64,000 nucleotides of DNA, from contig JANJGN010000026.1 in the NCBI GenBank assembly GCA_026770705.1, forward strand, positions 33,046,001 to 33,110,000, written 5' to 3'. The DNA comes from Isurus oxyrinchus. Lineage: Eukaryota. Made by a program: the position numbers. Position 1 is the first letter of the stretch, and each line of letters begins with the position of its first letter. This document shows positions 45,480 through 51,400 of this stretch, piece by piece.

Positions 45480-48400
45480 GGGGGGTGCGGGGAAGGGGTG
45501 GGGAGAGAGAGATAGACAGTGACCAGCAAGAATACACAGAACCCGCACACATTCTCGAGGCAAGGTATCGGGCACAACAGAAGAGTTCAGGGAGACTGCT
45601 TGCAGGACCGCAGGCAGTGCTGATTGTCACAAATTGTGGCAATGATCATAGACAGCTCATTGACACTGGGATTTCGGATAGATGCAGGAAGTGATGGGGG
45701 CCGATATGCTGGCGAAGACCACTCAAAATTCTCCCCCCTCCTCTCCACCGCCCCCTCCCCCAACTCCACCCCACCCCCCCACCTTGATCCCGAAAGCCTC
45801 GACTGACAGGAGGCTTCAAATAAAGCGCAGGGTCCCAGAGCGGAAATAATACGGCCAATATATCATCTGGAGTGTTGGCTTTTGGCTGTCACCCAACATT
45901 GTTATTTGATTGTTTCATTCATTTTTAATTTTCTCTCTGTTTGCCCATTCCAACATTGATTCGACTCTCTTCTATTCATCGATCTATAATTCTAATTGCT
46001 TCTCTGACAAGTTTTTTATCCCAGTCAGTGTCAGCATGTACATTTATATCTGAAGCTATGTCAATCATCATGTAAAATCTATCAATTTGTTCTTCCTGCT
46101 CCTTTGTCTCCGGAACGAAGAGTCCTTAAATGGCAAAAACGTGTTCTATCTATTTTATCANNNNNNNNNNNNNNNNNNNNNNNNNNNNNNNNNNNNNNNN
46201 NNNNNNNNNNNNNNNNNNNNNNNNNNNNNNNNNNNNNNNNNNNNNNNNNNNNNNNNNNNNNNNNNNNNNNNNNNNNNNNNNNNNNNNNNNNNNNNNNNNN
46301 NNNNNNNNNNNNNNNNNNNNNNNNNNNNNNNNNNNNNNNNNNNNNNNNNNNNNNNNNNNNNNNNNNNNNNNNNNNNNNNNNNNNNNNNNNNNNNNNNNNN
46401 NNNNNNNNNNNNNNNNNNNNNNNNNNNNNNNNNNNNNNNNNNNNNNNNNNNNNNNNNNNNNNNNNNNNNNNNNNNNNNNNNNNNNNNNNNNNNNNNNNNN
46501 NNNNNNNNNNNNNNNNNNNNNNNNNNNNNNNNNNNNNNNNNNNNNNNNNNNNNNNNNNNNNNNNNNNNNNGCTCTGTATCACTGTGTCTGTAATCCCACC
46601 ATGTTCAGGTTTTTGAACTGCTCTCTCCGTGATCTAACCCTGAACATTCACAGCTTCAAGTAACGGTGTCACCGACAGCAGATGTTTGTAGAGGTGGGCA
46701 CTAAGACACCAGGGAACTGGAATCTGGAGAATTTAAAATAACATTATTTGTTTGTTTAGCCATTGTTTACCTGGGAGAATTTGTCAATGACATGAAAGGT
46801 TCGTTTTTCTAAACTTGAAGCAAGCCTGTTCCAACCGTATTCACCGTCATTGAAATGTGATTAAGTGCAGAGATGATAATTTTCTTTTGTATCGAGAATT
46901 TTTCCAATCTGCACTGCGTGGTCAGAATGGGTGGTGCGAACGCACTCAGTGGGAACTTTCAAATGGCTGATGTATCTGTACTGCAACAGGAAAAATGTAC
47001 AGCCTCATGAGGAAATACATGCGTTTTGGTAAAAATTAGATTGCACTTTGAAAGTGATAGCATCTCCACGATGGGCCGAATGTCATTCTACCTCTCGGCA
47101 TGGTTCTCTGTTGTATATTACATTTCTGCTTCTATTTTCCTTGGTGAGTGACACCCCGATGGAACAGTTTCCAAAAAATGATTGTACGGGATAATCAGCA
47201 TCAGCATCACTGTGCACAGCATGATCGAAATGAAAGTGTTTGTGATTAATCAGCATTGATTGAAACTTCTCTCTTCCCCGTTCTAATGGCCGACCCCTTA
47301 TGCTGAAACTTTGGCTCCCAGTTATAGACTTTCCAACCTGAGGAAACTCCCACCTAGAACCTTCCCTCTCAAGCTCCTTAAGGATATATGTGTTCTCATG
47401 AGATCGCCCTCATTGCTGTAAATTCCAGGAAACACAGGCCCAGTCTACTCAATCCCTTCCCATAGGACAATCCCTTTACTTCAGGAATCAGTCTGATGAG
47501 CATTTGTTCCAAAGCATGTACAACCTTCCCTAAGTAAGATACCAGACTTTACATAGTATTCCAAACTGAAGTCCTTCTCTCCATAAACATCGCCCACCAC
47601 CCTGTGCTCGGATTATACTTTGAACGACCCAGACATCAACCAATCCTTCTCTCCCATTCGATGAATTATTTCTTGCTGGTTCTAAATGAATATTCTCTCA
47701 GTTTATATTTTTTTCCTTATGTCCCTGTTCTCCTTTATAAGATTAATGCATCATCCTCACTCTCTCACTGCACTTTGCGTTTTTAATTCACAGTAATCAG
47801 GGATATAGATAAATTACAGCAATCCCATCTCTCAAACATCGACATTCAATATAGAGAAGTTTCTGCAGTTCCAAACTTTCACATTTCGATCTGAGGATGG
47901 AAAAGGAGGAAATGATTGGGTATATGAAGACAATTGAAAGAAATGGCGGGTAAATGACCCGACTGTCCGATCATACCCTGTTCCTAAATTGAAGCCTGCA
48001 ATGGAAAAGGTCCCTTAGAAATCGTTTTTTTTTTTGCTTCGATGTGATTGAAACGATGTTGATCACAATAATAAGCTGACTGTGAACAATATCCGGCACA
48101 GTCTGCAACATGCGGGCTTCAGAGTCACTTATCGGCTGTGACAGTCACCACCATCCTGGATCCATCTACATAATTAGCACACCACTCTCAATCTCCCAGG
48201 TACAAGAACCATCGACAACTCAACCTGCCAGGAAATCATCATCGGGCAGTAGACACCTCACAATTATACAGCAGGTTTAAATGAATAATCAATATTCAAT
48301 GTTTCAAAGTCTCTATCTGTTCAAACTGTTCTTTCTGAGACCCTGAGCTCTGAGTAAATGGTCCCAGGAATGAGATATTCGCTTCATATAAACCGGAAAA

Positions 48401-51400
48401 AATATCAAAGAAAGATTACTGAATGGTGAAAATTAAAATGAAATGTAACCAGATTGCAATGATATTAACATCAACCGGACAATTCACTATCCGGGCCCGG
48501 AGAATTAATATTTACAAAGTATTTGCCCTACTCTCTCCCACTGTGACTGCCCGTGTAACAAGTTAGTATAAAATACCCACGGGTGCTAGGTGAGATGTGG
48601 GGACATTAAATAGCGGGGACTGCAGTTCCCGGTTCCAGCTGTTAGAACAGGATCACATCTGGTGTTAGGGGTTTGTAACTGGGATCAGTTATTCCTAATC
48701 CCCATTCAGAAATGAGAAAACAAATTACTGAGTTAGAGACGTATGTAATAAGGGTACAACTGTATTCATGGGTGACTTTAATCTATATATTGATTGGGCA
48801 ACCAAACTAGCAATAATACTGTGGAGGACGATTCCTGGAGTCTGTACGTGATGGTTGTTTAGGCCAATACGTTGAGGAGCCAACTGGAGAGCAGGTTATC
48901 CGAGACTGGGTATTGTGCAATGAGAAAGGATTAATTAACAACCTTGTTGTGCAGGGTCCCTGGGGGAAGAGCTACAATAACATGATAGAATTGTTCCTTA
49001 AGGTGGAGAGTGAAGGAGTTGAATCCGAAACTAGTGTCCTGGATCTAAATAAAGGGAACTGCAAGGTTATGAGGGGAGAGTTGGCAATGATGGATTAGGG
49101 AACCTTACGAAAAGAGCTGACAGTGGATCGGCAATGGTTAATATTTAAGGAACGTATACAACAATTATTCATTCCCGTCTGGCGCAAACATAGTATGGGA
49201 AAGATGGTTCAACCATGGATTACAAAAAAAATTAGGGATAGTATTAGATCCAACGAGTAGACATAAAAATTTCCAGAAAAAGCTTCAATCCTGAGAGTTG
49301 GAAGCAGTTTAGAATTCAGCAAAACGGGAAAAAAAGACTGATCAAGAAGGGGAAAATGGAGTATGAGAGTAAACTTGCAGGGAACATAAAAACTGATTGT
49401 AAAAGCTTCCATAAATATGCGAAGAGAAAATGATTAGTAAACTAACACTCACAAGCGGGGGAAACTATAGTTGGGAACAAAGAAATGGCATAAAAATTAA
49501 AGAGATATTTTGGTTCTGCCTTCACAAAAGGCAACACAAGTAATTTCCCAGAAATGTTAGGGAACCAGTGAGAGCGAGGAATTGAAGGAGATTAGCATTA
49601 GTGAAAAAAATTGTGCTGGACAAATTAATGGGGTTAAAATCTGAAAAATCCCCAGGGCCTGATAATCCACATCCCAGATTTCTAAAGGAGGTGACGCTGG
49701 AAATATTGGATGCATAGGTGGTCACCTTCCAAAATTCTATAGACTCTGGAACAGTTCCTACATATTGGGGAGTGGCAAATGTAACCCCATTATTTTAAAA
49801 AAGGAGGGAGAGCAAAAACAGATAATACAGAGCAGTTAGCCTAACATCAGTTGTGGGGAAAATGCTAGAGTCTGTTATAAAAGACATGCTAACTGAACAC
49901 TTGGAAAGCATCAATGGGATTAGACAAAGTCAGCATTGGTTTATGAAAGGGAAATCATGCTTAACTAATCTACTCGAGTTTTTTGAGGATGTAATTAGTA
50001 GAATAGATAAGGGAGAACCACTAAATGTGGTGTATTTGGATTTCAAGAAGGTTTTAATAAGGTCCCACGTAAGAGTCTAGTGGACAAAAGTAAAGCACAT
50101 GGGATTGGAGGTAATATACTGGCTTGTATTGAGAATTGGTTGACAGACCAGAAACAGGCAGTGGGAATAATGGGTCTTTTTTCCAGGTGGCAGGCCGTGA
50201 CTAGTGGTGTCCCGCAGAGATCAGTGCTTGAGCCCCAGTTATTCACAACATATATAGATAATTTGGATGAGGAAACCAAATGCAATATTTCCAAGTTTGC
50301 TGACGACACAAAACTGGACGGGGCTGTGAGATGTGAGGAGCATGCAACAGGGATTCAGGGCAATTGAGACAAGTTGTCTGTGTGTGTCGGCAATCACATG
50401 GCAAGTGCAGTATAACGTGGATAAATATAAAGTTACGCTTTGGTGTGAAAAACAGAAAGTCAGAGCATTATATCAATGGTGATAAATTGGGAAATATGGG
50501 TGTAGGAAGGAGTTTGGGTGTCGTTGTACACCAGCCAATGAAACTAAACAGGCAAATTAGGAAGGAAAATGGTATGTTGGCCTTCATTTAAAGTGGATTT
50601 GATTTCAGAAGTATGGATGTTTTATTGTAGTTGCAAAGGGCCTTGGTGAGAACACACCTGGAGAATTGCGTGCAGATTTTGTCTCTCTACGCAAGAAAAG
50701 ATATATTTGCCGTAGAGGGAGAGCAGCGAATGTTCACGAGGCTGATACTGGGCATAGCAGGACTGTCGAATGAGGGGAGATTGGTTCAACTGGGCCTGCA
50801 TTCACTAGAGTTTAGAAGAATGAGAGGGGATCTGATTGAAACACATATAATTCTAACAGCGCTAGAAAGAATAGATGCAGGAAGGATGTTTTCCCTGGTT
50901 GGGGAGTCCAGAACCAGGGGCCACCGTTTCAGAATACGTGGAAGGCCATTTAGGACCGAAATGAGGAAAATTCCTTCACTCAGAGGGTGGTCAACCTGTA
51001 GAATTCTCGACCAAAGAAGGCTATGGAGTCACTGAGTATATTCAAGAAAAAATCGACACATTTTTGGATATTAGTGGCATCAAGTGGTATGGACAGAAAG
51101 CGGGAATATGGTGTTTAGATCGAGGATCAACCATGATAATATTGAATGGCGGAACAAGATCGAAGGGCCGAACGGCCTACTCCGGCTCCTATTTCTATGT
51201 TTCTATGTTCCTCTGTTTCACCAACACCAACCCCGGGGAAGCCTTCACCATCTACTTGGTAGTTTTAAAACTGAAGATGTTAACGGTAATAATCCAATCG
51301 CACTATAAACTAGACTGGGGGTGGGGGGGGGGGGGGGGCAGACGGTGTGAGGCGGAACTGTAGGCGTTTAACGGCAGATTAACTCCGCTTTTTTACCTGT

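What the first reader, a model, noticed from the sequence alone, without database searches (positions are those of the whole stretch)
46630..48560. Cassette 2 lost three RSS heptamers by deletions across coding/signal borders: possible germline RAG scars
Relative to cassette 1, about 14 nt is missing across the J 5' end and heptamer (near 48180). About 14 nt is missing across D and the start of its V-facing heptamer (near 48552). About 195 nt is missing from CDR1 of the supporting V to just past a heptamer (near 46636). Most of each spacer and the nonamers remain. Established: sharks have germline-joined Ig genes attributed to germ-cell RAG activity, and RAG can produce open-and-shut joints with base loss. 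Inference: these deletions are fossil RAG cut-and-reseal events, or selected inactivation of RSS.
Basis: partly seen in the sequence, partly recalled or inferred. Interest (0 to 1): 0.75.

Follow-up and report, generated by a model that had tools for sequence, protein, structure and literature searches.

The report
Heptamer-removing deletions in dead NAR-TcR cassette
One of two old, broken copies of a shark-type double-rearranging T-cell-receptor gene cassette has lost three of its recombination-signal heptamers by small deletions, which may be ordinary decay or, less likely, scars left by the recombinase cutting in the germ line.

Summary
The window carries two minus-strand NAR-TcR-type cassettes (leader/NAR-like V, D, J, intron, leaderless supporting V), c1 at 34400-39332 and c2 at 46571-52032, 72-84% identical. 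Relative to c1, c2 lacks 14 nt at the J heptamer, 14 nt at the V-facing D heptamer and about 195 nt from supporting-V CDR1 into the RSS spacer. Both cassettes are pseudogenes with independent lesions.

Under uniform placement, c2 deletions of 8 nt or more span 2 of 4 heptamer/coding borders with P=0.003-0.004, or 0.02 if all indels of 5 nt or more count.

Several points weaken the RAG reading:
- The J deletion sits between imperfect direct repeats, and its placement is ambiguous over about 10 positions.
- The 195-nt event ends in a tandem RSS array 66 nt from an N-run.
- There is no outgroup, and the pattern was picked post hoc.

I rate RAG-independent decay at about 0.5 and germline RAG cut-and-reseal at about 0.3. 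A tandem array of five consensus 23-RSS behind the supporting V was noticed in passing.

The parts
46161..46570 (.). N-run (410 nt) abutting the left end of cassette 2; not filled or looked up
   Evidence: (N-run listing)
46571..46586 (-). cassette 2: second RSS copy of the tandem array. It has an intact heptamer (46580-46586, sense CACAGTG) and the first 9 spacer bases, then is cut by the N-run
46587..46636 (-). cassette 2: remnant of the RSS next to the supporting V. Parts are a linker (46587-46607), a nonamer (46608-46616, sense TCAAAAACC) and about 20 of 23 spacer bases (46617-46636). The heptamer is missing
46637..46723 (-). cassette 2: supporting-V exon remnant (FR1 to start of CDR1, 87 nt). 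It is preceded by an AG acceptor and contains an in-frame TGA. The deletion junction is at 46636/46637
48133..48176 (-). cassette 2: J remnant. The GXG motif is lost (GSRM) and the splice donor is changed from GT to AT at 48131-48132
48177..48178 (-). cassette 2: junction of the 14-nt J/heptamer deletion (dinucleotide GC on the + strand that matches neither flank of c1)
48179..48210 (-). cassette 2: J RSS remnant, with a 23-nt spacer (48179-48201, 20 of 23 identical to c1) and a nonamer (48202-48210). Under the alternative, equally scoring placement only 16 spacer bases remain
48518..48545 (-). cassette 2: intact J-facing D 12-RSS, with nonamer 48518-48526, spacer 48527-48538 and a perfect heptamer 48539-48545
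48546..48552 (-). cassette 2: D remnant, 7 nt versus 17 nt in c1
48553..48576 (-). cassette 2: V-facing D 12-RSS remnant, with the last 3 heptamer bases (48553-48555), a 12-nt spacer (48556-48567) and a nonamer (48568-48576)
48709..51217 (+). LINE-like retroelement fragment inserted between D and V of cassette 2; absent from cassette 1
   Evidence: 69.6% to 42868-45357; RVT_1 E=2.9e-6, below cut-off
51423..51460 (-). cassette 2: V RSS, with heptamer CACAGCG, a 22-nt spacer and nonamer ACAAAAATT; no deletion
51461..51741 (-). cassette 2: NAR-type V exon; one 1-nt deletion breaks the frame
51883..51926 (-). cassette 2: leader exon (ATG, hydrophobic leader, GT donor)
34400..34756 (-). cassette 1: tandem array of five consensus 23-RSS (period 62) plus a sixth decayed unit. 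The unit at 34718-34756 is the supporting V's own RSS
34757..35028 (-). cassette 1: supporting-V exon. It has no leader, starts at an AG acceptor and has a Cys in CDR1. It is a pseudogene: Cys23 replaced by Met, one TAG, one frameshift. A cryptic heptamer CACAGTA lies at 34931-34937
37958..38051 (-). cassette 1: J (37958-38012) with its 23-RSS (heptamer 38013-38019, spacer 38020-38042, nonamer 38043-38051)
38367..38439 (-). cassette 1: D (38395-38411, 17 nt) flanked by two 12-RSS with degenerate heptamers. The J-facing heptamer is at 38388-38394 (CACAATA) and the V-facing one at 38412-38418 (TACAGTG in canonical reading)
38760..39072 (-). cassette 1: V RSS (38760-38797, 22-nt spacer) and NAR-type V exon (38798-39072; one 5-nt deletion in FR2)
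39190..39233 (-). cassette 1: leader exon

Best explanation
Cassette 2 is an old, non-functional paralogue of a NAR-TcR cassette (NAR-type V, D, J, then a leaderless supporting V). Since the duplication both copies have drifted at the neutral rate. The three heptamer-removing gaps are most likely ordinary RAG-independent deletions that became fixed in DNA no longer under selection. For J, the likely route is replication slippage or microhomology-mediated repair between the imperfect direct repeats that flank the heptamer. For D, it is end-joining of a spontaneous break. For the supporting V, it is a larger deletion with one end in an unstable tandem RSS array. That three of them fall on RSS borders is then partly local sequence context and partly coincidence. 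What is shown: the anatomy, the gaps, the pseudogene status, the indel density. What is inferred: the mutational mechanism.
For: - Both cassettes carry independent inactivating lesions. In c1 these are a 5-nt deletion in the V, and Cys23>Met, a TAG and a frameshift in the supporting V. In c2 they are a 1-nt deletion in the V, a J donor changed from GT to AT, loss of the GXG motif, and a TGA in the supporting V.
- V-exon dN/dS is 1.17 with dS 0.19 over 86 codons, equal to the non-coding divergence.
- Indels are common: 40-51 gaps in about 2.6 kb of aligned sequence, 12-17 of them >=8 nt. Of the 5-6 c2 deletions >=8 nt in S3+S5+S6, 3-4 lie away from any heptamer/coding border.
- RSS also decay by substitution in both copies: c1 D heptamers are TACAGTG and CACAATA, and the c2 V heptamer is CACAGCG.
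- The J gap can be placed in 8 equally scoring positions, because GCGGTGT and GTGATGT flank the heptamer in c1. c2 keeps GTGGTGT, one mismatch from each.
- The 195-nt gap ends inside a 62-nt-period array.
- No segments are joined and the D-J interval is collinear.
Against: - Under uniform placement, the chance that c2 deletions >=8 nt span 2 of 4 borders is 0.0027-0.0039, and that 3 of 5 borders are spanned is 0.005.
- The D deletion has no flanking repeat beyond 0-1 nt.
- The V-side end of the 195-nt deletion lies 3 nt from a cryptic heptamer, with a background chance of 0.02-0.03.
- The two RSS hit by the 14-nt deletions are a legal 12/23 pair.
Confidence: 0.5

Rival explanations
1. Germline RAG cut-and-reseal. 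In a germ-line cell, RAG cleaved (or nicked) RSS of cassette 2 and the ends were rejoined without recombination, with loss of bases on both sides. In the most economical version, the V-facing D 12-RSS and the J 23-RSS were cut in one synapse and each was resealed to its own coding end (two open-and-shut joints). Separately, the supporting-V signal end was joined to a coding end made at the cryptic heptamer in CDR1 (a hybrid joint deleting the 181 nt between the two heptamers plus flanks).
For: - Borders are hit more often than by uniform chance.
- The two small deletions fall on a 12-RSS and a 23-RSS in the same orientation, and the interval between them is collinear with c1.
- Signal-side losses of about 2-7 nt and about 11 nt lie within the 2-12 nt seen in 12 of 18 wild-type signal-end insertions; 26 of 48 events in that study showed partial RSS loss (PMC2118463, passages).
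- Open-and-shut and hybrid joints are documented RAG products (PMC2213516, passages).
- About 10% of nurse-shark NS4 light-chain genes are germline-joined, and this is attributed to RAG in germ cells (PMC2193156, passages).
- The V-side end of the 195-nt gap is 3 nt from CACAGTA.
- In c1, 12 nt are missing flush against the heptamer of array unit 2, with that heptamer intact.
Against: - No standard joint (V-D, D-J) is present, although standard joints are the main RAG product.
- 12/23 compatibility is expected for 4 of 6 random pairs of the four RSS.
- The J deletion has a repeat-mediated explanation, and its coding-side loss may be zero.
- There is no outgroup, no P-nucleotide evidence and only three events.
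- The searches (listings only) turned up no printed precedent for fixed germline open-and-shut scars.
Confidence: 0.3
2. Selected inactivation: loss of the heptamers was favoured because rearrangement of a cassette with a destroyed supporting V would be wasteful or harmful.
For: c2's lesions cluster on recombination and splicing elements (2 of 4 V/D/J RSS, the supporting-V RSS, the J donor), while its NAR V exon has only one 1-nt lesion.
Against: - The c2 V RSS and the J-facing D RSS remain intact, the latter with a perfect heptamer. A second supporting-V RSS copy also survives, so recombination competence was not systematically removed.
- Divergence in the cassette is at the neutral level.
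- No test of selection is possible from two copies.
Confidence: 0.05
3. Assembly or somatic artefact: one or more gaps are not in the germ line but arise from misassembly near the gap, or from lymphocyte DNA in the sequenced tissue.
For: The 195-nt junction lies only 66 nt from the N-run 46161-46570 and inside a tandem repeat.
Against: - The two 14-nt gaps lie in unique sequence more than 1.5 kb from the N-run, not in homopolymers.
- Their flanks have diverged 16-18% from c1, so they are not a collapse of c1 onto c2.
- A clonal somatic event would not dominate an assembly consensus (inference).
Confidence: 0.1

Closest known systems
NAR-TcR (doubly rearranging TCR-delta with an N-terminal NAR-type V) of cartilaginous fish (Criscitiello et al. 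2006, cited from PMC1845163 and PMC12227049; the original was not held)
   Same: The NAR-type V has a leader, a Cys in the a-b loop and no Trp in the WYRK position. It has its own D and J with RSS. A leaderless supporting V follows, with a Cys in CDR1 and its own RSS (features as listed in PMC1845163).
   Different: Both copies here are pseudogenes. No TCR-delta D/J/C lies in the window. A tandem array of 23-RSS follows the supporting V; I found no mention of this in what I could read (and 45 listings; passages).
Germline-joined shark Ig genes (Lee et al. 2000, PMC2193156, passages read)
   Same: Both are proposed to record RAG action in germ cells of cartilaginous fish, and both involve base loss at coding ends.
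   Different: Germline-joined genes have the RSS and the intervening DNA completely excised and the segments fused. Here the segments stay apart, and only 14-195 nt around the heptamers are missing.
Open-and-shut and hybrid joints of V(D)J recombination (Lewis et al. 1988; Lewis & Hesse 1991; described in PMC2213516 and PMC2118463, passages read; the originals were not held)
   Same: In both, a break at the heptamer/coding border is resealed to the same (or another) coding end without standard recombination, and base loss at the junction is possible.
   Different: Those joints are known from lymphocytes and plasmid substrates, not as fixed germline alleles. From recall, signal ends in such joints are often intact, whereas here 2-11 signal bases are lost.
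Ordinary Ig/TCR pseudogene segments with defective RSS (for example split pseudogene S5 with noncanonical heptamers in PMC2193156, figure legend read)
   Same: Both are non-functional segments whose heptamers no longer match the consensus, alongside stops and frameshifts.
   Different: Here the heptamers are lost by deletions that straddle the border, rather than by substitution.

Membership tests
NAR-TcR cassette | N-terminal V domain of the IgNAR type | tested here: met
   For the c1 V 5' piece, the best PDB match is a shark V-NAR (4hgk_C, E=6.7e-4) and the top 3 matches are VNAR. For the 3' piece, VNAR chains score from E=1.9e-9 among generic V domains. Pfam V-set reaches E=1.3e-5, 25.8 bits, just under the 26-bit cut-off; 3 of 6 V pieces matched V-set and 3 of 6 matched nothing.
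NAR-TcR cassette | NAR-TcR V has a leader, a Cys in the a-b loop and lacks the Trp of WYRK (features from PMC1845163) | tested here: met
   c1 reads ...RKECQSLTITC... and ...HFFRQ...; c2 reads ...RKQCQSLTITC... and ...LFIRQ.... Leader exons with ATG and GT donors lie at 39190-39233 and 51883-51926.
NAR-TcR cassette | Own D and J segments with RSS between the NAR V and the supporting V | tested here: met
   c1 has a V 22-RSS, a D flanked by two 12-RSS, and a J 23-RSS followed by a GT donor. c2 has the same layout with two heptamers deleted.
NAR-TcR cassette | Supporting V lacks a leader, has a Cys in CDR1 and carries its own RSS | tested here: met
   The c1 exon starts at an AG acceptor (35029-35030), its CDR1 reads EYSGFC, and its 23-RSS is at 34718-34756. 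In c2 the CDR1 Cys position lies in the deleted part.
NAR-TcR cassette | Supporting V is of TCR-delta type and lies in the TCR-alpha/delta locus upstream of delta D-J-C | not testable with these tools
   The PDB search gives only generic V-domain hits. No D/J/C of TCR-delta is in the window, and no other RSS outside the cassettes was found. No eukaryotic genome collection was available.
Germline-joined antigen-receptor gene | Segments fused, with RSS and intervening DNA fully excised | tested here: not met
   V, D, J and the supporting V stay separate and collinear with c1.
Open-and-shut / hybrid joint (RAG cut and reseal) | Junctional change located at the heptamer/coding border of a true RSS | tested here: inconclusive
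   For D, all 3 best placements span the border. For J, all 8 best placements delete 5-7 heptamer bases, but the coding-side loss ranges from 0 to 9 nt. For the supporting V, the border is spanned by a 195-nt gap whose RSS-side end cannot be assigned to a particular array unit.
Open-and-shut / hybrid joint (RAG cut and reseal) | The RSS cut together obey the 12/23 rule | tested here: met
   The D V-facing RSS has a 12-nt spacer and the J RSS a 23-nt spacer. This is weak evidence: 4 of the 6 possible pairs of the four RSS would also comply.
Open-and-shut / hybrid joint (RAG cut and reseal) | Hairpin footprint (P-nucleotides) or other recombinase-specific junction marks | tested here: inconclusive
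   The J junction holds 2 bases (GC) that match neither flank and are not palindromic to the coding end. After 16-18% divergence, substitutions cannot be excluded.
Open-and-shut / hybrid joint (RAG cut and reseal) | Event occurred in germ-line cells expressing RAG | not testable with these tools
   This needs sperm or erythrocyte DNA and expression data.

The most novel reading that the evidence does not exclude
The three deletions are fixed germline footprints of RAG cleavage without recombination. In one 12/23 synapse, the V-facing D RSS and the J RSS were cut and each was resealed to its own coding end with about 14 nt lost. Separately, a hybrid joint formed between a cryptic heptamer in supporting-V CDR1 and the V's own 23-RSS. 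The 12-nt loss flush against an intact heptamer in c1's RSS array may be a fourth scar. This would show that germline RAG activity in cartilaginous fish erodes RSS as well as joining segments. It would also give a sequence signature for measuring that activity across genomes.
Probability: 0.25. Interest if true: 0.65.

Novelty: new member of a known kind. Interest (0 to 1): 0.38.

Why it matters
If the RAG reading were right, it would add a second kind of fossil of germline recombinase activity in sharks: RSS scars, beside the known germline-joined genes. It would also provide a countable signature for asking how often RAG acts on the germ line and how antigen-receptor pseudogenes are disarmed.

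As it stands, the locus shows that a striking coincidence (three heptamers lost) can arise in a pair of neutrally drifting pseudo-cassettes. The question is only answerable with many paralogues and an outgroup.

The tandem array of consensus 23-RSS behind the supporting V, present in both cassettes, may be the more unusual feature.

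Tried and rejected
- **Global MAFFT alignment.** Aligning the two cassettes end to end misaligned the supporting-V block. I replaced it with block-wise global alignments under four scoring schemes and gap-sliding.
- **Search for a third cassette as outgroup.** tblastn of 14 c1 peptides gave no hit with E<=1e-3 outside c1 and c2. A scan for strong RSS found 8 sites, all inside the two cassettes.
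- **Homology left of the array and N-run.** Only 21-44-nt microsatellite-type matches turned up, best E=0.002. The hidden part of c2's array therefore cannot be sized.
- **Signal-joint relic.** I read the palindrome CTGTGCACAG (c2 47210-47219) as a possible signal-joint relic. By eye there is no nonamer at 12 or 23 nt on either side, so I dropped it.
- **Counting the large c1-only stretches as deletions.** Treating the roughly 1170-nt and 335-nt stretches this way removes the significance (P=0.29). I kept this as a caveat, not as the main test, because one such event would span several borders at once.
- **Pfam on V pieces.** The 5' halves of the V exons and the FR1-FR2 piece of the c1 supporting V gave nothing.
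- **Papers not held.** Criscitiello 2006, Ott 2021 and Lewis & Hesse 1991.
- **Structure, complex and atlas tools.** Not used; they do not bear on the question.
- **Supplementary files.** Closed. They might hold NAR-TcR germline RSS sequences.

Full report
**What the locus is.** A self-comparison of the window finds one pair of collinear paralogous stretches. I call them c1 (about 34400-39332, weaker homology to about 40160) and c2 (46571-52032, to about 52990).

The aligned blocks are:
- 34941-35456 with 46636-47148
- 36750-37441 with 47273-47950
- 37886-38554 with 48060-48708
- 38552-39332 with 51218-52032

c2 is interrupted at 48709-51217 by a LINE-like fragment. That fragment has a 69.6% identical copy at 42868-45357 and a weak reverse-transcriptase match. 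An N-run (46161-46570) abuts c2's left end. It was neither filled nor looked up.

Both stretches encode, on the minus strand:
- a leader exon;
- a V exon whose 5' half matches shark V-NAR best in the PDB (4hgk_C, E=6.7e-4; the top three hits are VNAR), and whose 3' half matches VNAR from E=1.9e-9 among generic V domains;
- an RSS with a 22-nt spacer;
- a short D flanked by two 12-RSS;
- a J with a 23-RSS and a splice donor;
- after an intron, a leaderless V exon that begins at an AG acceptor and ends in a 23-RSS.

The V has a Cys in the a-b loop and lacks the Trp of WYRK. The second V of c1 has a Cys in CDR1. These are the features listed for NAR-TcR V and its supporting TCR-delta V in PMC1845163 (passages read). 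I therefore file both as NAR-TcR-type cassettes of a cartilaginous fish, and the window is not human.

Whether the supporting V is delta-type, and whether delta D-J-C lies downstream, could not be tested (no eukaryotic collection available). Coding pieces were searched one by one.

Only these two cassettes exist in the window. All 8 strong RSS matches in the 64 kb lie inside them. The neighbours are C2H2 zinc-finger genes, a rhodopsin-type GPCR and LINEs.

**Both cassettes are dead.**
- c1's V exon has one 5-nt deletion in FR2.
- c1's supporting V has Met in place of Cys23, a TAG and a frameshift.
- c2's V exon has one 1-nt deletion.
- c2's J has lost the GXG motif, and its donor has changed from GT to AT.
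- c2's supporting-V remnant has a TGA.

None is shared, so the copies died independently after the duplication. Block identities are 72-84%. V-exon dS is 0.19 and dN/dS is 1.17 over 86 codons, which is the non-coding level.

**The observation.**

| Gap | Position in c1 | Junction in c2 | Support |
|---|---|---|---|
| J, 14 nt | 38004-38017 | 48177-48178 | 4 of 4 schemes and MAFFT |
| D, 14 nt | 38400-38413 | 48552/48553 | 4 of 4 schemes and MAFFT |
| Supporting V, 195 nt | 34746-34940 | 46636/46637 | single gap in 1 of 4 schemes |

For the third gap, the other three schemes break it up, because c2's RSS remnant can align to any unit of c1's RSS array.

Sliding the gap shows how precise each placement is:
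- The D deletion is placed to within 3 positions. It removes 2-4 coding-proximal heptamer bases and 10-12 of the 17 D bases.
- The J deletion can sit in 8 equally good positions. All 8 remove at least 5 of the 7 heptamer bases. The rest of the loss is anything from 9 J bases to 7 spacer bases.

Only the exact 'across the J 5' end' is undecidable.

Two qualifications apply. First, c2 keeps a perfect heptamer of a second RSS copy at 46580-46586. Second, c2's V RSS and J-facing D RSS are undamaged.

**Is it more than chance?** In the 2139 nt of blocks S3+S5+S6 there are 5-6 c2 deletions of 8 nt or more. Placing them at random gives these probabilities:

| Test | P |
|---|---|
| >=2 of the 4 V/D/J heptamer-coding borders spanned, c2 deletions >=8 nt | 0.0027-0.0039 |
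| Same, all 12 indels >=5 nt of either direction | 0.020 |
| >=2 of 4 heptamers merely touched | 0.007-0.046 |

Adding the supporting-V block gives P(>=3 of 5) = 0.005. This rises to 0.29 if the two large c1-only stretches are treated as randomly placed deletions.

These figures assume uniform placement. They ignore that the pattern was picked after reading the sequence. So there is a nominal enrichment, but it is not robust.

**Evidence on mechanism that favours RAG.**
- The two small deletions fall on a 12-RSS and a 23-RSS of the same orientation. A single synapse followed by two open-and-shut joints would give exactly the collinear outcome seen.
- Signal-side losses (about 2-7 nt, about 11 nt) lie within the 2-12 nt reported for signal ends joined to non-signal DNA (PMC2118463).
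- The V-side end of the 195-nt gap is 3 nt from a cryptic heptamer CACAGTA (c1 34931-34937). The background chance of that is 0.02-0.03. This fits a hybrid joint between two same-orientation heptamers.
- In c1, 12 nt are missing flush against an intact array heptamer.
- Germline RAG action in sharks is established through germline-joined genes (PMC2193156).

**Evidence on mechanism against RAG.**
- In c1 the J heptamer is flanked by GCGGTGT and GTGATGT. c2 retains GTGGTGT, one mismatch from each. This is a textbook substrate for slippage or microhomology repair, and it explains the 14-nt size as heptamer plus one repeat.
- 12/23 compatibility is expected for 4 of 6 random pairs.
- No standard joint is present, although that is RAG's main product.
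- RSS in both copies also decay by substitution.
- Of the 10 c2 deletions >=5 nt, 7 have no heptamer-like site within 10 nt. Ordinary deletions of this size are therefore plentiful.
- The largest event ends in a tandem array 66 nt from an N-run.

**Verdict.**
- About 0.5: ordinary RAG-independent decay of a dead cassette.
- About 0.3: germline RAG cut-and-reseal.
- About 0.1: artefact, mainly for the 195-nt gap.
- About 0.05: selected inactivation.

I found no printed report of fixed germline open-and-shut scars in the searches (listings only). I found no report of tandem RSS arrays (listing only). The key NAR-TcR genomic papers were not held, and supplements were closed, so precedent may exist there.

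**Side observation.** Directly 3' of c1's supporting V lie five tandem copies of a consensus 23-RSS. Each has a perfect CACAGTG, a spacer of exactly 23 nt and a nonamer matching 8-9 of 9; the period is 62 nt. A sixth, decayed unit follows. c2 shows the same array up to the N-run, and the duplicon's left boundary lies at the array. Heptamer and nonamer columns vary less (2 of 16) than spacer and linker columns (16 of 44), but only at P=0.067.

Noticed in passing
34400-34756 (c1) and 46571-46636 (c2): A tandem array (period 62) of five consensus 23-RSS plus a sixth decayed unit lies directly downstream of the supporting V. Each unit has a perfect heptamer, a spacer of exactly 23 nt and a nonamer matching 8-9 of 9. 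The array is present in both cassettes. Heptamer and nonamer columns vary in 2 of 16 positions against 16 of 44 for spacer and linker (P=0.067). No precedent was found in the listing.
   Followed up: partly
34707-34717 (c1 array unit 1 linker): The linker between the supporting V's own RSS and the next RSS copy is 11 nt. It is 21-23 nt in the other units and in c2. The 12 missing bases lie flush against the intact heptamer of unit 2.
   Followed up: partly
c1 34931-34937: A cryptic heptamer CACAGTA is formed by the Cys-Thr-Val codons of supporting-V CDR1, 3 nt inside the V-side end of the 195-nt deletion. The chance of such a site within 3-4 nt of a random point is 0.02-0.03.
   Followed up: yes
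48709-51217 and 42868-45357: Two copies (69.6% identical) of a LINE-like fragment. One is inserted between D and V of cassette 2. A fuller LINE lies at about 25700-29800, with reverse transcriptase, endonuclease and a ZCCHC3-like ORF1.
   Followed up: partly
c1 35460-36750 and 37441-37886: Two stretches of about 1170 and 335 nt are present in c1 but not in c2, in the J-supporting-V intron and just 3' of J. Whether they are insertions in c1 or deletions in c2 is unknown. No repeat copy of either was found elsewhere in the window.
   Followed up: no
5800-6900, 10400-11450, 17400-18250: Three C2H2 zinc-finger gene bodies on the minus strand with internally repeated finger arrays.
   Followed up: partly
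21097-22056 (-) and 57307-58209 (+): An intact-looking rhodopsin-family GPCR ORF (7tm_1, E=2.2e-21) and a broken paralogue in two frames, 63.7% identical at the DNA level.
   Followed up: partly
c2 47210-47219; c1 about 35546-35559: A 10-nt perfect palindrome CTGTGCACAG (head-to-head heptamer-like halves) lies in the J-supporting-V intron of c2, and is imperfect in c1. By eye there is no nonamer at 12 or 23 nt on either side.
   Followed up: partly
34337-34395 and about 45416-45480: A (TG)n microsatellite lies just beyond c1's RSS array. A TG/GA-rich tract lies about 700 nt left of c2's N-run. This is the only similarity found left of the duplicon.
   Followed up: no
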